A program made the translations under genes and the position numbers. Under the pieces are notes generated by a model, which did not search any database, was not told where the DNA came from, and saw only the letters and a program-made list of their open reading frames with translations. Source: an uncultured virus (IMG/VR IMGVR_UViG_3300003086_000045) (Duplodnaviria; Heunggongvirae; Uroviricota; Caudoviricetes; Demerecviridae). From it: a stretch of DNA of 20,000 nucleotides. This document shows positions 3,496-18,898 of this stretch, piece after piece (positions within the stretch are counted from its first letter, which is position 1; each line of letters starts with the position of its first letter). The DNA is taken from positions 57,902 to 77,901 of the IMG/VR virus record IMGVR_UViG_3300003086_000045. One strand, written 5' to 3'.

Positions 3496-3664
3496 TAAAA
3501 TCTCTCCTCAAATTCGTTTACATCTTTCATTACTACGTCCATATTAGTTTGTGCATCTATATACCTAATGTGTGCTGATGCTACATCGATCCTAGACAGT
3601 AATACTTCTATTGTTGCTTTGTTAGCAGCAATTTGGTTCTCTAACTTCTTTTTCTCTAAATTCA

Positions 3665-3889
3665 TTAAATATGCTCCTGTAGTTCTTCTAAAGTATCCTC
3701 TATACTAGCTATTCTTCTTTCTAGTACCTTATCGTTCTTGTACAAGTTATCAGTGTTTTTAATCACGTATTTTCTTATTTGTTGTACCAGTTCTTCTAAT
3801 ACTATAACCCTACTCTGTAATTCAATTAACACTCTGTTAGCTTCAGATGCAGACATTTGTTCTAATTCTTTGGCTTCTACGTATTTCAT
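3665..3889 (-). CDS. small coiled-coil protein
   Basis: heptad pattern; AAGGAG RBS. Confidence 0.65.
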   Translation of the reverse strand: MKYVEAKELEQMSASEANRVLIELQSRVIVLEELVQQIRKYVIKNTDNLYKNDKVLERRIASIEDTLEELQEHI

Positions 3890-3898
3890 ATTATCTCC

Positions 3899-4135
3899 TT
3901 ACCAAGGTAAATCATCGGCATCTCTTTTCTTAGCCTGCCTTGGTACATTGGTTCCAGGAACAGTAAACTGTTCTAACTTCTTCTTTTTCTCTTCACGTTT
4001 CATTAGAGCATCTTCTAAAGTCATCTCCTTAGCCTTAGCTAGGGATATTCTATATTTTGCGTCCGCTTTAAACCAAGCTGTTTGTGCTATTAGGTTCTCT
4101 TTCTGTGCTATCATTAGCTCTTCTTCTAAAGTCAT
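3899..4135 (-). CDS. hypothetical phage protein ending DDLPW
   Basis: ORF with acidic-aromatic C-terminal tip. Confidence 0.6.
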   Translation of the reverse strand: MTLEEELMIAQKENLIAQTAWFKADAKYRISLAKAKEMTLEDALMKREEKKKKLEQFTVPGTNVPRQAKKRDADDLPW

Positions 4136-4136
4136 A

Positions 4137-4292
4137 CTAATGACACCCAGCTACATTTTGCTCTGTCACAACATATTCTATCTGTTCTGCTAAGTTTAGT
4201 TCAGCCTCATCTGCTATCAATTTTATGTGTCTACCTCTTTGTTTCTCTGTTTCAATCTTTGCTAACAGTAATTCTCTTCTTAAATCTTCCAC
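4137..4292 (-). CDS. small hypothetical protein (51 aa, GTG start, MEDLRRELLLAKIETEKQRG...)
   Basis: hand-translated; GGAG RBS; first ORF after promoter 4317-4345. Confidence 0.55.
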   Translation of the reverse strand: MEDLRRELLLAKIETEKQRGRHIKLIADEAELNLAEQIEYVVTEQNVAGCH

Positions 4293-4316
4293 TGATTTCT
4301 CCATTTCAAAAAGATT

Positions 4317-4345
4317 ATTATCCCATAATTTAACCAGAATGTCAA
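4317..4345 (-). promoter_or_regulatory. sigma70 promoter TTGACA-N17-GATAAT
   Basis: + strand attatc(4317-22)...tgtcaa(4340-45). Confidence 0.65.
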
Positions 4346-4436
4346 GAAATAAATTAAGCTTAACTAAATGAATTTTTTTCTCGTTACACTAACTTGACCA
4401 GCTAACAAATTTCATCTCACCTAGGGAAAATAGTTC

Positions 4437-4465
4437 TTGCATTTTTGTTAAAAGTAGTGTATAAT
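4437..4465 (+). promoter_or_regulatory. sigma70 promoter TTGCAT-N17-TATAAT firing into non-coding DNA
   Basis: ttgcat 4437-42, tataat 4460-65. Confidence 0.75.
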
Positions 4466-4470
4466 ATATA

Positions 4471-4805
4471 GTGTAATTTGAAACAACTAATTGATTCCAA
4501 TGAACTAGAAGTGTCTTGTATGAAAAACATAAGGCATTTCGGAACCATAGCGTTGTTGGAACAAAAGGAAACAGTACGCCCAACAGGTTCCGGATATGAC
4601 TTATGACTAATTTTTCAATAGACACGTCAGTTTTCCTTAACTTAAAGCCTAAATTCACGTCTAAAATAAGGCTCATACATATTTCCTGATTTTAAGACTA
4701 AAAAGCTGGACAATAACACTGTCGGAACAGCTAAAATATTCTTTCAAAGTGGTTATCGCTAAAGTAAGATGACAAGTCTTACTTAATTTGTTTCCCACTG
4801 TACAC
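4471..4805 (+). ncRNA. candidate large structured non-coding RNA (~335 nt)
   Basis: own promoter; 5'/3' closing helices; long interrupted hairpin 4511-4625; further hairpins 4646-4673, 4704-4732, 4762-4784; no credible + strand ORF. Confidence 0.55.
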
Positions 4806-4853
4806 CAATTTCCATAATTTGTACCCATTCTGTTACTTCCCTCGTTTTAACTT

Positions 4854-4893
4854 GTTATTCGTGTGTTAAGCTCGTTATGCGTGTGTTAAGCTC
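4854..4893. repeat. 20-bp tandem direct repeat gttat(t/g)cgtgtgttaagctc x2
   Basis: 4854-4873 and 4874-4893, one mismatch. Confidence 0.8.
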
Positions 4894-4951
4894 GCGCAAT
4901 TGGATATTTCATATCCCTATTCGCGCAACTAAACAAACTGTTATCTACCTG

Positions 4952-5284
4952 TTATAACTGTTTTATAGTATCTAATAACTCTTTCAAAGCACCTTTACTT
5001 GATTTCTCTAGCCCTGAGAAAGCCGGTGTATCACCTAACATATCAATTACTGCTTCCTTAATTTTATTAATTATCTCAGTCTTGGTCTCAGGCTTATCTC
5101 CTGTTTTAGATATGTACTCTTCCTTCCTGTATACACCTTCCCTAGCTAGCTTACCTACTATCGATTTCGCAGATTTACCTAATGTTTTAGCTAGGTAGTT
5201 GACCGTAGTCATATTAGGGTCGCTAATATACTCATCTACTATTAACTTGGTCTGTTCTGGTGTATAGTTTATTTCTCGTGGCAT
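4952..5284 (-). CDS. T5 A2-like DNA-binding protein, paralog 1
   Basis: NYT..Y...LGKSAKSIVGKLAREGVY..SKTG..TK..LEKSSKGAL pattern shared with 4 other ORFs and, from recall, T5 A2. Confidence 0.7.
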   Translation of the reverse strand: MPREINYTPEQTKLIVDEYISDPNMTTVNYLAKTLGKSAKSIVGKLAREGVYRKEEYISKTGDKPETKTEIINKIKEAVIDMLGDTPAFSGLEKSSKGALKELLDTIKQL

Positions 5285-5306
5285 AATTTCTCCTATGTAA
5301 AACTAT

Positions 5307-5335
5307 ATTATACACCACTTAACCAATTTTGTCAA
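5307..5335 (-). promoter_or_regulatory. consensus sigma70 promoter (17-bp spacer)
   Basis: attata 5307-12, tgtcaa 5330-35. Confidence 0.85.
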
Positions 5336-5356
5336 GTTGTATTTACGACCGTGCAC

Positions 5357-5384
5357 AAAAAAGCCTCAAACTAATGAGGCTTTT
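5357..5384 (-). terminator. intrinsic terminator (probably bidirectional)
   Basis: aaaaaagcctca-aactaa-tgaggctttt. Confidence 0.75.
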
Positions 5385-5504
5385 GAACCAATTGGGGTGT
5401 TACCCCTCGTTGTTCAGGCTGGCTAAAAGGTCAAGTACACTAAAGTTAACCAAAAGGCAATATTTAGTATAAAAACCATACCTTTCTCAACTACTTTTAG
5501 CACA

Positions 5505-5648
5505 TTATTTCATTGACCCGTTAAGGCAACGCTTAGAATTAGGTTTACGTTTACAACGCTTAGCTCCGTGACTAAGTCTTTTCTTACTAATCTTATTGCC
5601 GTTGTTATCCTTTTTAAATGTCACAAATGGTATAGTGTCTTTGCTCAT
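5505..5648 (-). CDS. 47-aa highly basic peptide MSKDTIPFVTFKKDNNGNKISKKRLSHGAKRCKRKPNSKRCLNGSMK
   Basis: hand-translated; ATGA overlap with upstream A2-like gene; AGGAG RBS. Confidence 0.6.
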   Translation of the reverse strand: MSKDTIPFVTFKKDNNGNKISKKRLSHGAKRCKRKPNSKRCLNGSMK

Positions 5649-5986
5649 TTTCTCTCCTTTAATTCGTATTGGTTGTTCAAATCTCTTAGTAAGTCTACCA
5701 TTGCTTCTAGGTCTGCCTTAGAAGCGTTCTCAAAACTCTTAAATTGGTTATCTCTAGCATTCATCATAATTCTAATAACATTTACTAAGGCTGCTTTTTT
5801 AACAGCTATTGGTTTTGATGATGCTTTCTTCACTTTTTGATAAACTCCTTCTGTAGCCAACTTAGAAATGATTGACCTAACTGATTTTCCCATACCTGAT
5901 GCTAACTTCTCTACTGTTGCCTTAGTTGGTGTTTCACCATATGTTACTACCAACTCTTTTACTTGTTCTTTTGTATAATTTACCAT
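5645..5986 (-). CDS. T5 A2-like DNA-binding protein, paralog 2
   Basis: NYTKEQV..Y..PT...MGKSVRSIISKLATEGVYQK...SFENASKADL; GGAGG RBS. Confidence 0.7.
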   Translation of the reverse strand: MVNYTKEQVKELVVTYGETPTKATVEKLASGMGKSVRSIISKLATEGVYQKVKKASSKPIAVKKAALVNVIRIMMNARDNQFKSFENASKADLEAMVDLLRDLNNQYELKERK

Positions 5987-6036
5987 ATTTTACTTACCTC
6001 CTTAATATTCCATAAATTTTCTCTTTTTCAGAATAT

Positions 6037-7295: not shown

Positions 7296-7324
7296 TTGAC
7301 AATTTGCTCAACTTCATGTATAAT
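7296..7324 (+). promoter_or_regulatory. consensus sigma70 promoter into non-coding DNA
   Basis: ttgaca 7296-7301, N17, tataat 7319-24. Confidence 0.8.
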
Positions 7325-7432
7325 ATATATTATAATCGGGAATCTGTCTGGCCGGACGGCGCCCACAACAAAAATAGTCGTCGGTCTACTACTTGTCGGT
7401 CGGCGCTTAAGCGCTGCTTTTCTGTGGGCGAT

Positions 7433-7452
7433 AAAAAACCCCTTGCGGGGTT
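7433..7452 (-). terminator. intrinsic terminator of A2-like paralog 3
   Basis: minus strand AACCCC-GCAA-GGGGTTTTTT. Confidence 0.85.
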
Positions 7453-7457
7453 AATTA

Positions 7458-7778
7458 TTAGCCTAGAGCCTTAACTAACGTTTGGAGGTCTTGCTTCGTA
7501 GCCTTGGCTAATGACTCTACCGAGTCAACGCCCACCTTTTCAGCAATTTGAGCAACTAATTGCGCTTTAGTAATTACAGCCTCACCTGTCTTAGTCACAC
7601 GCTTCTCAGCTTCGTACACACCTTCACGAGATAGCTTAGCAATAATAGAGCGTGTTGTCTTGCCGAACTTCTCAGCAATGGTTGCCACCACCATTTTGTT
7701 ATCTCCTTCCTTAGCCTCGTAGATAGCGATCATTTCAGCAGTTTGGTCATCAGTGTAGTTTTTTGTCTTGTCAGTCAT
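7458..7778 (-). CDS. T5 A2-like DNA-binding protein, paralog 3
   Basis: NYTDDQT..Y...FGKTTRSIIAKLSREGVY..TKTG..TKAQLV..SLAKATKQDL; AGGAG RBS. Confidence 0.72.
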   Translation of the reverse strand: MTDKTKNYTDDQTAEMIAIYEAKEGDNKMVVATIAEKFGKTTRSIIAKLSREGVYEAEKRVTKTGEAVITKAQLVAQIAEKVGVDSVESLAKATKQDLQTLVKALG

Positions 7779-7934: not shown

Positions 7935-7963
7935 TTGACAAAATCGTCCGCACACTGTATAAT
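7935..7963 (+). promoter_or_regulatory. consensus sigma70 promoter with GC-rich discriminator (cggcgcc)
   Basis: ttgaca 7935-40, N17, tataat 7958-63. Confidence 0.8.
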
Positions 7964-8120
7964 CGGCGCCTTCGCACCACTAAAAAAGTCGTTGCTCCAC
8001 TACTCCCTCCGGCGCCTATAGAGCACTTAAAAAAGTCGTTACTCTACTACTTGCCTGCCGGCGCAGGGGCGCTGAACATATGGTTCAATATTGCCCCTAT
8101 TATTTGTGTGGGAAAAAGCC

Positions 8121-8148
8121 TTGACAAAGTGGTGTAATAGTGTATAAT
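8121..8148 (+). promoter_or_regulatory. sigma70 promoter (16-bp spacer) into non-coding DNA
   Basis: ttgaca 8121-26, tataat 8143-48. Confidence 0.75.
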
Positions 8149-8191
8149 ATGTGGTATGGTGGGAGATCCGACCAAGTGGCCGCCGGCGCAG

Positions 8192-8216
8192 CCAAATGAG
8201 AATCATTCTCATTTGG
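8192..8216. promoter_or_regulatory. Fur-box-like perfect palindrome CCAAATGAGAATCATTCTCATTTGG
   Basis: 12-1-12 inverted repeat; core AATGAGAATCATTCTCATT fits the gammaproteobacterial Fur consensus AATGA(T/G)AATNATT(A/C)TCATT. Confidence 0.75.
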
Positions 8217-8222
8217 AGGTTT

Positions 8223-8241
8223 GGGGCATATTGCCCCTTTT
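8223..8241 (+). terminator. intrinsic terminator ggggca-tat-tgcccc-tttt
   Basis: GC stem with U tract on the + strand; abuts stop of paralog 4. Confidence 0.65.
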
Positions 8242-8243
8242 AT

Positions 8244-8561
8244 TTAAAGGTTATTAAACAGAAATTCCAAATCGCTCTTGGTGGCTTTCACCAAGGAGGA
8301 TATTGAGCTGAAATTCATAGATTGTTTTTCGGCAATCTTTTTAACCAAATCTTCTTTGGTGATAACAGGCAACCCCGATTTCGTTGTACGTTCCTTTTTC
8401 TGGTAAACGCCCTCTCTGGACAATTTAGCAATTAAAGACCTAGAAGATTTACCCGTACTATCAGCAAGGTCATTAACCGTTACCATTGTAGGATTTGCTG
8501 AATATTCCGCGATGATTTTAGCAGTTAATTCTTTAGAGTAGTTTTTATTTTTATCAGTCAT
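8244..8561 (-). CDS. T5 A2-like DNA-binding protein, paralog 4
   Basis: NYSKEL..YSANPTM..TGKSSRSLIAKLSREGVYQKK..TKSG..TKEDLV..SLVKATKSDL; GGAGG RBS. Confidence 0.72.
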   Translation of the reverse strand: MTDKNKNYSKELTAKIIAEYSANPTMVTVNDLADSTGKSSRSLIAKLSREGVYQKKERTTKSGLPVITKEDLVKKIAEKQSMNFSSISSLVKATKSDLEFLFNNL

Positions 8562-8673: not shown

Positions 8674-8702
8674 TTGACATTGTGTGCGTGGTAGTGTATA
8701 AT
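8674..8702 (+). promoter_or_regulatory. consensus sigma70 promoter with GC-rich discriminator, antisense to the exonuclease gene
   Basis: ttgaca 8674-79, N17, tataat 8697-8702, then tggcgcc. Confidence 0.8.
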
Positions 8703-8712
8703 TGGCGCCGCA

Positions 8713-8731
8713 AATGAGAATCATTCTCATT
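8713..8731. promoter_or_regulatory. Fur-box-like perfect palindrome AATGAGAATCATTCTCATT (second copy)
   Basis: identical 19-mer to 8195-8213; 10 bp downstream of the -10 box. Confidence 0.75.
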
Positions 8732-9910: not shown

Positions 9911-9978
9911 CGGCGCAGACCTATATAAGTATATTATAATGTTCTAATATGCCCGCGGTGCGGTTTTGTGTGGGCGAT

Positions 9979-9999
9979 AAAAAACCCCTTTCGGGGTTT
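9979..9999 (-). terminator. intrinsic terminator of A2-like paralog 5
   Basis: minus strand AAACCCC-GAAA-GGGGTTTTTT; near-identical context to 7423-7452. Confidence 0.85.
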
Positions 10000-10011
10000 G
10001 GGTTTATCTCC

Positions 10012-10335
10012 CTATGTAATTGCAGTTAAAAGTGTTTGTAAGGCATATTTAGAAGCCTTAGTAAGCGAGGAGATTGAAGCCTCATCTACATCAGCCTTTG
10101 CTGATATTAGTTTAACAATATCAGCCTTAGTCTGAACAACAGCACCAGATTTTGTAGTGCGTGCCTTCTTTTTATATACGCCTTCCTTAGATAGTTTAGC
10201 GATTAAAGAGCGAACAGTCTTACCCGTAGTTTCAGCAAGGTCATTAACCGTTGCCATAGTTGGGTTAGCAGTATAGTCCGCAATGATTAGTTTAACCATT
10301 TCATCAGAGTAGTTCTTAGTAGTAGTAGTAGCCAT
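10012..10335 (-). CDS. T5 A2-like DNA-binding protein, paralog 5
   Basis: NYSDEMV..YTANPTM..TGKTVRSLIAKLSKEGVYKKK..TKSG..TKADIV..SLTKASKYAL. Confidence 0.72.
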   Translation of the reverse strand: MATTTTKNYSDEMVKLIIADYTANPTMATVNDLAETTGKTVRSLIAKLSKEGVYKKKARTTKSGAVVQTKADIVKLISAKADVDEASISSLTKASKYALQTLLTAIT

Positions 10336-12787: not shown

Positions 12788-14092
12788 ATGGCAGAAATAT
12801 ATAATACGCCTAATTTAGACGAATTAGAAAATGGGCCCTGGCCCTCATTTGTAACAGGAATGAAACGTTTAGCATCTAGTGACCACGATGGTGCTCCGAT
12901 GGTAAGAGACGTTTTAGCAACATTAGAGACATCGTACGTAACCAAGAAGGGTTACTGGAAAGGTGGCACAGTAGGTGTTATCGGATATGGTGGTGGAGTT
13001 ATCCCTCGCTTTAATGAACTGAAAGATGAAAACGGTGACTACAAATTTAAAGATGCGGGTGAGTTCCATACCTTAAGAATTCAACCGCCAGCAGGTATGC
13101 ACTATACTTCGGACCTGTTAAGAAGCTTATGTGATACATTCACAGATAACGGTGGTTCTGGCTTAATTGCCTTCCATGGTCAGTCTGGTGACATTATGTT
13201 TCAAGGTGCTACTGAAGATACAACACAAACAATTTTTAACGAATTGAATGACATTGGTTTTGATATGGGTGGAGCAGGTCCGGCAGTACGTACAGGGATG
13301 TCCTGTGTTGGTGCAGCTCGTTGTGAGATGTCAAACACAAATGAGCAAGCTGCTCTACGTACATTAGTCAATGCATTTCTAGACGATATGCACAGACCGG
13401 CATTACCTTACAAAATGAAGTTTAAGGTATCAGGATGTGCAAATGATTGTATGAACTCTATTGAACGTTCAGACTTTGCAACAATAGGTACTTGGAGAGA
13501 CGATATTAAAATCAACCAAGACTTGTGGAAAGCAATGGTTGCAGATAAAGGCTTGGACTATGTTCATGACAATATCACTAGTCGTTGCCCTACACAAGCT
13601 ATGACACTAAATGAGGATACGTCATTAACGATTGATAATAGGAACTGTGTTAAATGTATGCATTGTTTAAATGTAACGTCTCCTTTAACACATAAATACA
13701 TTACAAAAGATATGCCTACAGAAGCTATCTTAGCAACTGGTGACGATAAAGGCGTAACTATCTGTATGGGTGGTAAAAGAACCCTTAAGATTGGTGATCT
13801 ATTCGGTACAGTAGTTGTTCCATTTATGAAACTAGAAACACCGGAAGATTACGAGGCAATTGAAGAGTTAGCTAGTGAAGTAATTGACTTCTTCGCTGAG
13901 AATGCACTAGAACACGAAAGAACTGGTGAAATGATCGAACGTATAGGTATTGTGAACTTTATGGAAGGTATTGGCTTAAACGTTGATCCTAACATGATTG
14001 GTAGTCCTAGATATATGTCTTATGTAAGAATGGACAAGTGGGATGAAGAAGCAGTTGCTTGGTTCGAGAACAAAGCGGAGAAAGTAGCATGA
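12788..14092 (+). CDS. dsrA: reverse-type dissimilatory sulfite reductase alpha subunit (phage AMG)
   Basis: TPNLDELENGPWPSFV N-terminus; siroheme-[4Fe-4S] motifs CVGAARC and GCANDC; ferredoxin motif CP...CVKCMHC; GGKRTLKIGDL typical of sulfur oxidisers. Confidence 0.97.
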   Translation: MAEIYNTPNLDELENGPWPSFVTGMKRLASSDHDGAPMVRDVLATLETSYVTKKGYWKGGTVGVIGYGGGVIPRFNELKDENGDYKFKDAGEFHTLRIQPPAGMHYTSDLLRSLCDTFTDNGGSGLIAFHGQSGDIMFQGATEDTTQTIFNELNDIGFDMGGAGPAVRTGMSCVGAARCEMSNTNEQAALRTLVNAFLDDMHRPALPYKMKFKVSGCANDCMNSIERSDFATIGTWRDDIKINQDLWKAMVADKGLDYVHDNITSRCPTQAMTLNEDTSLTIDNRNCVKCMHCLNVTSPLTHKYITKDMPTEAILATGDDKGVTICMGGKRTLKIGDLFGTVVVPFMKLETPEDYEAIEELASEVIDFFAENALEHERTGEMIERIGIVNFMEGIGLNVDPNMIGSPRYMSYVRMDKWDEEAVAWFENKAEKVA

Positions 14093-18610: not shown

Positions 18611-18898
18611 AAAAGGTGCTTTATTCTGGGCACTGGTTATCTTTATGCTAGTTATACTAGCGTGAATAGATTTAAGTGTGTATCGTGTGTAGCTACTATA
18701 GCTATATATATAGTTACATTCGTATGTATACTAGTGATAAAATATGCTGGGTAAACTAACACACTGTATAGCAACAAAGAAGTGTTTTACATCTTGGTCT
18801 TGGAACAAGTGTAAATGCTTAGCATACCTCCTGTCTATGGCAGTCGGGGTTCCTTTACTTATGATAGGGACTTCGTTCCTAATGATGGAGATTAATAA

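What the first reader, a model, noticed from the sequence alone, without database searches (positions are those of the whole stretch)
4437..4805. Candidate novel ~335-nt structured phage ncRNA with its own promoter
Seen: a + strand promoter (4437-4465) fires into ORF-free DNA within a minus-strand gene block. The 5' end pairs with the 3' end (gtgta 4471-75/tacac 4801-05; gaaacaa 4480-86/ttgtttc 4788-94). This encloses a long nested hairpin (gtgtct 4511/agacac 4620; tgaaaaa 4521/tttttca 4611; cataag 4528/cttatg 4600; ttcggaacc 4538/ggttccgga 4586; tgttgg 4554/ccaaca 4580) and three more hairpins (4646-73, 4704-32, 4762-84). The apical loop aaggaaa (4565-71) could pair with tttcctt (4632-38) as a pseudoknot. 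It lacks tRNA/tmRNA ends. Inference: a multi-domain RNA, possibly an RNAP or protein decoy, an anti-defence RNA or a scaffold.
Basis: partly seen in the sequence, partly recalled or inferred. Interest (0 to 1): 0.85.

Follow-up and report, generated by a model that had tools for sequence, protein, structure and literature searches.

The report
Phage rod-hairpin non-coding RNA gene
A marine T5-like phage most likely carries a small gene for a folded, non-coding RNA built around one long hairpin; similar units sit beside the same small gene in many related uncultured phages, and their job is unknown.

Summary
The promoter (4437-4465) and the 115-nt hairpin (4511-4625) are real. The promoter fits this phage's own strong promoter class. 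The hairpin folds far better than shuffles (z -4.95). The 5'-3' closing helix and the loop pseudoknot are no better than chance, and the 335-nt stretch as a whole folds no better than typical DNA of this genome.

The antisense 95-aa ORF has no relatives among 1.84 billion proteins, and a natural variant shifts its frame.

The best support comes from relatives. In 51 of 100 fetched loci that encode the orthologue of the neighbouring 110-aa protein, a promoter of the same class fires towards that gene into a short leader and a 95-130-nt rod hairpin. These rods have z -5.2 to -8.8. They are backed by compensatory changes (20 of 42 pairs in one group, 13 of 36 in another) and by a sense-strand bias.

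None of these units matches Rfam or any GenBank phage. My two covariance models do not detect the window's copy, so its homology rests on position, promoter and architecture.

In vent metagenomes the inner 81 nt of the window's hairpin is replaced by 101 other letters between invariant flanks.

Verdict: probably a real, uncatalogued phage RNA gene of unknown function. No transcript evidence was available.

The parts
4424..4436 (+). A-rich upstream promoter element, with the CCTAGG just before it
   Evidence: Nearly identical in L014 (34-nt match at 88%; alignment). A similar A-tract precedes the genome's other strong promoters.
4437..4465 (+). Sigma-70-type promoter: TTGCAT, 17-nt spacer ending in TG, TATAAT
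   Evidence: Read directly. It belongs to the genome's promoter class. It aligns with the promoters of the RNA units in relatives.
4471..4795 (+). Predicted non-coding RNA, about 325 nt. The 5' end is inferred from the promoter and the 3' end is uncertain.
   Evidence: No conserved ORF. Fold. Relatives have units of about 350 nt ending at a bidirectional terminator.
4490..4501 (+). Small leader hairpin (AUUG-AUUC-CAAU)
   Evidence: Present in the MFE fold. Relatives also have a small hairpin in the leader.
4511..4625 (+). Long rod hairpin, about 39 base pairs with small internal loops
   Evidence: z -4.95 on the + strand and -5.25 on the - strand. Analogous rods in relatives have z -5.2 to -8.8.
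4528..4608 (+). Inner part of the rod, swapped in natural populations (81 nt replaced by 101 other letters)
   Evidence: Joint 4527->4609 in one contig each of three runs (X9, X17, X11), while 4317-4527 shows 0 differences.
4704..4732 (+). Tail hairpin
   Evidence: Present in the MFE fold; no comparative support.
4762..4795 (+). 8-bp hairpin followed by a U-rich run: weak candidate terminator
   Evidence: Read. The terminator scan did not call it. A natural T>C change at 4784 alters the closing pair.
4846..4885 (.). 20-nt tandem repeat in spacer DNA; one copy is missing in some strains
   Evidence: Repeat families D2 and D5. 20 letters are left out at 4854 in X9 and X17, with further indels of 8 and 11 nt nearby.
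4893..4925 (.). GC-clamped hairpin just past the stop of the 110-aa gene; no U-run on either strand
   Evidence: Inverted repeat I15; sequence.
4952..5284 (-). 110-aa helical protein gene, the conserved convergent neighbour of the RNA unit
   Evidence: Orthologues at 44-56% identity in relatives. Weak PHROG 'DNA binding protein' and D5-like hits. The model has a three-helix N-terminal bundle with only weak HTH-like fold matches.
4389..4676 (-). Antisense 95-aa ORF, judged not to be a gene
   Evidence: Only itself among 1.84 billion representatives, plus one spurious hit. No PHROG match and no tblastn match in relatives. The +20-nt cassette swap shifts its frame.
4673..4828 (-). Antisense 51-aa ORF, probably not a gene
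   Evidence: No homologue, no PHROG match, no tblastn match in relatives. Of 5 natural changes, 2 are synonymous and 3 are not.
4317..4345 (-). Strong minus-strand promoter of the next operon; bounds the gap
   Evidence: TTGACA-17-GATAAT, 11 of 12 with TG. This stretch recurs at three other places in the genome.

Best explanation
Positions 4437 to about 4795 form an independent gene for a non-coding RNA of about 325 nt in a T5-like marine phage. Host RNA polymerase starts at a promoter of the phage's strong early-type class. The RNA consists of a short leader with a small hairpin, one 115-nt rod-like hairpin, and an A/U-rich tail with small hairpins that probably ends at a weak terminator.

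It is the positional counterpart of a widespread, uncatalogued group of 'rod' RNAs. In related uncultured phages these always lie downstream of, and convergent with, the orthologue of the 110-aa helical protein gene.

I infer, without evidence shown here, that the RNA acts in trans through the rod as a protein-binding or decoy RNA. On this view the inner rod is the specificity-bearing part, which would explain why it is exchanged between strains while its base and flanks stay fixed.
For: Shown:
- The promoter belongs to the genome's own strong class and is near-identical to that of L014.
- The rod has z -4.95.
- There is no conserved coding frame on either strand, and the natural 81->101-nt swap shifts the frame of the 95-aa ORF.
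- 51 of 100 fetched loci with the neighbour gene's homologue carry a promoter-leader-rod unit convergent to it: 24 of L019 type, 3 of L014 type, 21 of L007/L010/L068 types and 3 copies of the window's own type. The loci are not all independent contigs.
- The neighbour proteins are orthologues of the 110-aa gene, at 44-56% identity against 34-39% for the window's paralogues.
- The relatives' rods have z -5.2 to -8.8.
- Covariation in relatives: in A3, 20 of 42 pairs changed on both sides, 87% of cells paired against 27-45% when slid, and 0 of 500 shuffles as good. In A4, 13 of 36 pairs are compensatory.
- The sense strand folds better than the antisense strand in 19 of 19 rods, and G-U cells outnumber A-C cells 62 to 16.
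- The relatives' tails hold no ORF and end at a bidirectional terminator that itself covaries.

Inferred: the 5' and 3' ends, and the function.
Against: - No transcript evidence: no RNA run holds the stretch.
- The only copies of the window's own type are identical, so there is no covariation test for this sequence itself.
- Covariance models R1 and R2 and an nhmmer profile do not find the window's unit. The core CUCUCGA...GAGAG motif near the apex of most relatives is absent from this allele.
- The sense-over-antisense advantage in the window is only 1.5 kcal/mol.
- The energy of the whole 335 nt is unremarkable for this genome (48th of 462).
- No clean terminator.
- The antisense ORFs have an ATGA overlap, and the 95-aa ORF has an AGGA 7 nt before its start.
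Confidence: 0.68

Rival explanations
1. The unit matters in cis, not as a stable RNA. Convergent transcription from 4437, or the hairpin itself, stops or trims read-through from the 110-aa gene's promoter (5335-5307) before the next operon's promoter (4345-4317). Alternatively the + transcript pairs with the 3' end of the neighbour's mRNA, as lambda OOP does (OOP recalled, not tested).
For: - The unit is always convergent with the same gene.
- In the L019 type the two share one bidirectional terminator.
- No clear minus-strand terminator lies between 4951 and 4346.
- Two paralogue genes in the window (7458-7778, 8244-8561) also have a convergent short + strand unit at their 3' end.
- The hairpin folds on both strands.
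Against: - A 100-130-nt rod conserved by compensatory changes, with conserved sequence near its apex, is far more than a terminator or an antisense overlap needs.
- The relatives' rods clearly favour the sense strand.
- In the L019 type the RNA ends before the neighbour's coding region.
Confidence: 0.13
2. The gap encodes two small minus-strand proteins (51 aa at 4673-4828, 95 aa at 4389-4676), co-transcribed with the rest of the block. On this view the + promoter and the hairpin are incidental.
For: The ORFs abut with an ATGA overlap. AGGA lies 7 nt before the 95-aa start and GAGG about 11 nt before the 51-aa start. Small orphan genes are the norm in this block. Two of 5 natural changes in the 51-aa frame are silent.
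Against: - The 95-aa product matches only itself among 1.84 billion representatives.
- The 51-aa product has no homologue.
- There is no PHROG match and no tblastn match in any relative.
- The natural swap adds 20 nt inside the 95-aa frame.
- Three of 5 changes in the 51-aa frame alter residues 2, 3 and 5.
Confidence: 0.06
3. The hairpin is a DNA-level element of a highly plastic early region, such as a recombination hot spot, a small inserted palindromic cassette or an origin-like site. No RNA product matters.
For: - The inner hairpin is swapped as a block while its flanks are invariant.
- The same region shows whole-gene indels and replaced segments in natural populations (joints 3885->4132 and 5513->5641).
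- Promoter modules are repeated in the genome.
- The hairpin is nearly strand-symmetric in the window.
Against: - A promoter sits at a fixed short distance upstream of the rod, on the same strand, in every group found.
- G-U pairs and energy favour the transcribed strand.
- The base of the rod and the leader are conserved as well as the inner part.
Confidence: 0.09
4. Chance: an AT-rich spacer that happens to contain a promoter-like site and a palindrome.
For: The energy of the whole region is ordinary for this genome. The closing helix and the pseudoknot are at chance level.
Against: The rod has z -4.95. The promoter fits a specific class. The same architecture occurs at the same position in 48 further loci of other types.
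Confidence: 0.04

Closest known systems
Stable RNAs of unknown function of coliphage T5 (RNAI, RNAIII, RNAIV, RNA2H of 172 nt, RNAX of 719 nt), as annotated in record AY543070
   Same: They are non-coding RNAs in the early, small-gene region of a T5-type genome. Some lie directly behind strong early promoters (P13b before RNA2H, P16-17 before RNAX). None has a known function. The window's genome is T5-like: split NAD ligase, D5-like regulator, SbcCD, polymerase, primase and helicase.
   Different: There is no sequence match: blastn of 4300-4960 against all GenBank phages found nothing. R1 finds nothing in the T5 region. RNA2H and RNAX fold as multi-branch structures, not as a single rod. The T5 RNAs lie among tRNA genes on the same strand as their neighbours, whereas the window has no tRNA and its unit is on the opposite strand.
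6S RNA (RNA polymerase decoy)
   Different: No 6S model matches at E up to 10. The predicted rod has only small internal loops and no large central bubble. The rod is 115 nt, against about 180 nt for 6S RNA (a recalled figure).
Lambda OOP and similar convergent antisense RNAs of phages (recalled from general knowledge)
   Same: It is a short, separately promoted RNA that converges on the 3' end of a small regulator-like gene.
   Different: OOP is 77 nt and overlaps the coding end of its target. Here the RNA is four times longer and is dominated by a conserved rod. In the L019 type it stops at a shared terminator before the neighbour's coding region.
PeSL (promoter-early stem-loop) cassettes of T4-type phages (named in earlier scan notes; paper not read here)
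   Same: They are repeated early-promoter modules in a plastic region of small genes where whole cassettes are gained and lost. The window shows repeated promoter modules and gene-sized indels between strains.
   Different: PeSLs are short intergenic promoter-plus-hairpin signals that flank protein genes. Here the promoter drives about 325 nt with no gene.
Earlier scan finding e1-6453851 (another genome): a marine phage RNA of about 280 nt whose long hairpin arm is exchanged between related phages
   Same: The description matches: a separately transcribed RNA, a long rod, and cassette-like exchange of the hairpin. It also names the T5 stable RNAs as its closest known relatives.
   Different: No sequence was available, so I could not tell whether it belongs to the same family. 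A word-based look-up with my sequences found no look-alike.

Membership tests
Rod-hairpin RNA units of marine T5-like phages (defined here; alignments A3/A4, models R1/R2) | Promoter of the phage's strong class directly upstream on the same strand | tested here: met
   4437-4465 aligns with the promoters of the L014, L019 and L068 types and fits the genome's class.
Rod-hairpin RNA units of marine T5-like phages (defined here; alignments A3/A4, models R1/R2) | Lies downstream of, and convergent with, the orthologue of the 110-aa protein gene | tested here: met
   The window gene 4952-5284 is 44-56% identical to the neighbours of the relatives' units, against 34-39% for its own paralogues. The layout is the same.
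Rod-hairpin RNA units of marine T5-like phages (defined here; alignments A3/A4, models R1/R2) | Short leader with a small hairpin, then one 95-130-nt rod far more stable than shuffles | tested here: met
   Window: the rod starts 40 nt after the inferred start, is 115 nt long and has z -4.95. Relatives.
Rod-hairpin RNA units of marine T5-like phages (defined here; alignments A3/A4, models R1/R2) | Match to covariance model R1 or R2, or to the nhmmer profile | tested here: not met
   No hit on the rod with filters off and no nhmmer hit. Caveat: R1 also misses the L068 type and R2 misses the L019 type, so the models do not cross groups.
Rod-hairpin RNA units of marine T5-like phages (defined here; alignments A3/A4, models R1/R2) | CUCUCGA ... 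GAGAG core flanking the apical stem-loop | tested here: not met
   Present in the L019, L007, L010 and L068 types and absent from 4528-4608 of this allele. The alternative 101-nt allele could not be read.
Any Rfam 15 family | Covariance-model match | tested here: not met
   0 matches at gathering score in the window. Only chance-level rows at E up to 10 in 4300-4960. No family matches the relatives' units.
6S RNA | Model match and a large central bubble in a rod of about 180 nt | tested here: not met
   No 6S row. The fold has only small loops.
tRNA / tmRNA / tRNA-like | Cloverleaf detected by ARAGORN or the Rfam tRNA model | tested here: not met
   0 genes found by ARAGORN. No tRNA row.
T5 stable RNAs (RNA2H, RNAX and others) | Sequence or fold similarity to the annotated T5 RNAs | tested here: not met
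   No blastn match to any GenBank phage. R1 gives no relevant hit in the T5 region. The folds differ.
Convergent antisense RNA (OOP-like) | The transcript overlaps the 3' end of the convergent gene's mRNA | not testable with these tools
   The 3' end of the + transcript and the end of the minus mRNA are both unknown, and no RNA data were available.

The most novel reading that the evidence does not exclude
Marine T5-like phages carry a widespread, uncatalogued two-part module: a small helical (HTH-like) protein gene and a convergent, early-expressed 'rod' RNA. The inner hairpin of the RNA is a swappable specificity cassette. The RNA would serve as a decoy or guide in phage-host or phage-phage conflict, for example by titrating a host factor that senses or cuts hairpins, possibly together with the neighbouring protein. 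Strains would exchange the cassette to keep pace with that conflict.
Probability: 0.2. Interest if true: 0.8.

Novelty: new variant of a known kind. Interest (0 to 1): 0.58.

Why it matters
Phage-encoded stable RNAs of unknown function have been annotated in T5 (record AY543070) and remain unexplained.

This work gives a comparative handle on them. The unit is promoter-driven and covariation-supported. It is found in about half of the fetched loci of a marine T5-like lineage, is always paired with the same small gene, and is absent from Rfam and from cultured phages.

The window's copy adds a natural experiment. The inner hairpin is replaced in co-occurring vent populations while everything around it is frozen. 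This points to the rod's interior as the functional, fast-evolving part.

If the RNA is real, it is a tractable candidate for a new phage counter-defence or takeover RNA in phages of an ecologically important sulfur-oxidising host group. The host link is inferred only from the rdsrA gene in the window.

Tried and rejected
- RNA evidence: no RNA holder is listed for 4300-4960. Run X20, labelled 'RNA? (probably DNA)', gave two low-depth contigs (4121-4307 and 4609-4752). They say nothing about expression.
- Homology of the window's unit: blastn against the 23 viral loci found only the promoter. nhmmer with the L019-family profile gave no hit. R1 and R2 with filters off gave no hit on the rod.
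- A leader similarity to the L019 type (about 18 of 25 aligned letters, read) is suggestive but not significant.
- The alternative 101-nt cassette could not be retrieved.
- GenBank phages: no match for the window unit, the L019 unit, the L007 unit or the 110-aa protein.
- The pseudoknot and the closing helix are at chance level.
- A repeated CTAAAA(A/T)A motif in the tail is not enriched: 5 found against 5.8 expected in the window.
- Energy of the whole region against the genome background is not exceptional. An earlier, denser version of this scan timed out.
- Fold search for the neighbour protein gave only weak HTH-like or homeodomain-like matches (best E 0.32). Pfam found nothing above its cut-offs.
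- Literature: two full-text searches and one passage look-up found nothing on such an RNA in T5-like phages. I saw only listings and three passages, so this is not proof of absence in print.
- A type I toxin reading was rejected. The only + strand ORF (42 aa) is hydrophilic and lies inside the rod.

Full report
**Setting**

The window is the last 20 kb of a 77.9-kb viral record estimated to be 62% complete. The record is T5-like. It has a split NAD-dependent ligase, a D5-like regulator, SbcCD-like nuclease, polymerase, primase, DnaB-like helicase, ribonucleotide reductase, thymidylate synthase and PhoH. It also carries an rdsrA gene 83% identical to that of podophage Lau218.

Positions 1 to about 10,700 form a block of small minus-strand genes, each group driven by very strong promoters of one class: an A-rich upstream tract, TTGACA, a 17-nt spacer, often TG, then TATAATata. 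The finding lies in the largest gap of that block, 4305-4951. The gap is bounded by the promoter of the next operon (4345-4317, minus strand) and the stop of a 110-aa gene (4952-5284, minus strand).

**The observation**

The + strand promoter is real: TTGCAT, a 17-nt spacer ending in TG, then TATAAT, at 4437-4465. The consensus scan missed it only because its -35 scores 3 of 6. Its upstream tract, spacer and the letters after the -10 fit the genome's own promoter class.

The nested hairpin 4511-4625 is the minimum-energy fold, with z -4.95 and 0 of 200 shuffles as good. It folds almost as well on the other strand, with z -5.25. Against 7765 overlapping 120-nt windows of the + strand of the whole record it ranks about 28th, and it is one of only four single-hairpin folds among the top 40.

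- The whole 335 nt has z -3.6 against shuffles. Against GC-matched windows of the same genome it ranks only 48th of 462.
- Two of the three small hairpins are in the best fold.
- A 7-nt loop-tail complement arises in 271 of 2000 shuffles. The 5'-3' complement arises in 74 of 2000 shuffles (restricted region) or 635 of 2000 (anywhere in the tail).
- There is no tRNA or tmRNA and no Rfam family, even at E up to 10.

**Is it coding?**

The minus strand has a 51-aa and a 95-aa ORF joined by an ATGA overlap, and the 95-aa ORF has a good AGGA before its start. This rival had to be tested.
- The 95-aa product matches only itself among 1.84 billion representatives, plus one spurious repeat-protein hit.
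- The 51-aa product has no homologue.
- Neither matches a PHROG, and neither is found by tblastn in 23 related loci.
- Natural variants settle the larger ORF (see below): a swap adds 20 nt inside it.
- In the 51-aa frame, 2 of 5 natural changes are silent and 3 alter residues 2, 3 and 5. This is uninformative.

**Natural variation**

Twenty public runs from 12 studies hold the stretch, all as DNA or probable DNA. I laid contigs of four runs on 3500-6000.
- In three runs, one contig each joins 4527 to 4609 with 101 other letters in place of the 81 reference letters. In one run this form has depth 253, against about 60 for the reference form in that bin.
- The flanks are frozen: 4317-4527 shows 0 differences in all three runs, and 4609-4753 shows 0 or 1.
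- The swapped segment is exactly the interior of the rod above the helix tgaaaaa/tttttca.
- Further right (4842-4950) there are 8-, 20- and 11-nt indels. One removes a copy of a 20-nt tandem repeat. This part is therefore loose spacer.
- The surrounding region also shows gene-sized differences between strains, with joints 3885->4132 and 5513->5641. Plasticity is thus general here, but the precision of the swap inside the hairpin is notable.
- I could not read the 101 letters.

**Relatives**

Searching IMG/VR and metagenome contigs with the 110-aa protein gave 23 and 77 loci. Three are identical copies of the window's unit, so the window's own sequence offers no covariation.

Elsewhere the same layout recurs: a promoter of the same class on the opposite strand, downstream of the protein gene and firing towards it, then a 35-55-nt leader with a small hairpin, then one long rod.
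- The L019 type is found in 24 loci, plus one truncated copy, by an nhmmer profile.
- The L014 type (3 loci) has a promoter almost identical to the window's. Model R1 finds it full-length at exactly the expected place (E 0.039).
- The L007, L010 and L068 types account for 21 loci.
- Together with the window's type this makes 51 of 100 loci. Some are the same contig in two collections. Many of the rest are short contigs or more distant relatives that I did not examine further.
- The neighbouring proteins are orthologues of the 110-aa gene (44-56% identity), not of its three paralogues in the window (34-39%).

**Evidence that the relatives' rods are RNA structures**

- Representative rods have z -5.2 to -8.8.
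- In alignment A3 (15 rows, 14 distinct), 20 of 42 pairs changed on both sides and 87% of cells are paired, against 27-45% when the partner is slid. No shuffle out of 500 reaches the observed values for four of the five measures; the fifth, further pair types, was reached by 430 of 500 shuffles.
- The structure was taken from one member's fold, which favours it somewhat.
- RNAalifold on A2 and A4 independently gives 11 of 23 and 13 of 36 pairs with compensatory changes.
- The most divergent members (L013, L022) keep the rod with almost entirely different letters.
- The promoter-sense strand folds better than its complement in 19 of 19 rods, by 1.5 to 15.4 kcal/mol. This covers about eight independent lineages, and the window has the smallest margin.
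- G-U cells outnumber A-C cells 62 to 16.
- The tails contain no ORF. In the L019 type they end at a bidirectional terminator whose stem also covaries.
- None of these units matches Rfam or any GenBank phage. The protein has no homologue in GenBank phages either.

**How firmly does the window's unit belong?**

Position, orientation, promoter and architecture agree. Sequence-and-structure models do not.
- R1, R2 and the nhmmer profile miss it.
- The CUCUCGA...GAGAG core near the apex of most relatives is absent from this allele.
- The models also fail to cross between the other groups, so the miss is weak evidence against membership. Homology remains unproven.
- No R1 or R2 match lies elsewhere in the held 77.9 kb, so there is no competing orthologue in the part of the genome that is held.

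**Mechanism**

What is shown is a promoter, a rod and a conserved genetic partnership. The rest is inference.

I commit to a trans-acting, early-expressed stable RNA whose rod binds a protein (decoy or scaffold). The sequence of the inner rod would carry specificity. This would explain why that sequence is nearly invariant within the L019 type yet exchanged as a block between strains of the window's phage.

I put about 0.68 on 'a real RNA gene', and well under half of that on this particular mode of action.

A cis role (insulating convergent operons, or an OOP-like antisense effect on the neighbour) is the main rival. It gains some colour from the window's paralogues. The genes at 7458-7778 and 8244-8561 also have a short, separately promoted + strand unit ending at a clean terminator right at their stop codons.

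The neighbour protein is helical, with a three-helix N-terminal bundle. Its PHROG and fold matches are only weakly HTH-like, so 'DNA-binding' is a label and not a result.

**Comparison with known systems**

The nearest known things are the stable RNAs of unknown function annotated in T5's early region. They share the genomic setting and the lack of a known function, but not sequence or fold.

6S RNA is not supported.

It may be the same kind of element, but I could not compare sequences.

**Verdict**

This is probably a genuine, uncatalogued phage RNA gene, a local and divergent representative of a broad rod-RNA group. Its function is unknown and no expression data were available.

Noticed in passing
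window 7296-7460: A second + strand strong promoter (7296-7324) inside the minus block fires into about 125 nt without an ORF. The unit ends at a clean GC-rich terminator (7434-7456) that abuts the stop of the 106-aa paralogue gene (7458-7778, minus). Fold z is only -1.7.
   Followed up: partly
window 7935-8112: A + strand promoter (7935-7963) is followed by two copies of a 22-nt motif of the form AAAAAAGTCGTT.CTC.ACTACT, bracketed by GGCGCC. A diverged third copy lies at about 7373-7398. No tRNA or Rfam match; fold z -1.4.
   Followed up: partly
window 8121-8245 and 8674-8731: Two further + strand promoters each drive a short unit containing the same perfect hairpin (aaatgagaatcattctcatt). 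The first ends at a clean terminator next to the 105-aa paralogue gene (8244-8561, minus). Fold z is -3.3 and -3.1.
   Followed up: partly
window 4952-5284, 5645-5986, 7458-7778, 8244-8561 (all minus): Four paralogues of one small helical protein family lie within 3.6 kb (shared motif K-S-x-x-S-I-x-x-K-L-x-R-E-G-V-Y). Three of the four have a convergent + strand non-coding unit at their 3' end.
   Followed up: partly
window 3885-4132, 3666-3790, 5513-5641: In vent metagenome contigs the 78-aa gene (3899-4135) is missing (joint 3885->4132 in two runs) and other segments are skipped or replaced. The 31-nt stretch 4316-4346 is an assembly branch point. This looks like cassette-style gene turnover at repeated promoter modules.
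   Followed up: no
window 4300-4347; G000:C1:57276-57321, 47781-47840, 45167-45205: The minus-strand promoter and leader of the operon to the left of the gap recur at three other places in the genome (79-94% identity).
   Followed up: no
window 12788-14092 (+): A 434-aa reverse dissimilatory sulfite reductase alpha subunit gene (rdsrA) is 83% identical at the DNA level to that of podophage Lau218. It is an auxiliary sulfur-oxidation gene shared between unrelated phage types.
   Followed up: no
window about 9940-10060 and about 18640-18760 (+): Two other single long hairpins (43 and 37 pairs) rank among the best-folding 120-nt windows of the genome.
   Followed up: no
L107:5567-10264 and L108:2219-5042 (same genome, outside the window): A cluster of four radical-SAM proteins and a tryptophan-halogenase-like protein (PHROG E 1e-92). 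This is an unusual set for a T5-like phage.
   Followed up: no
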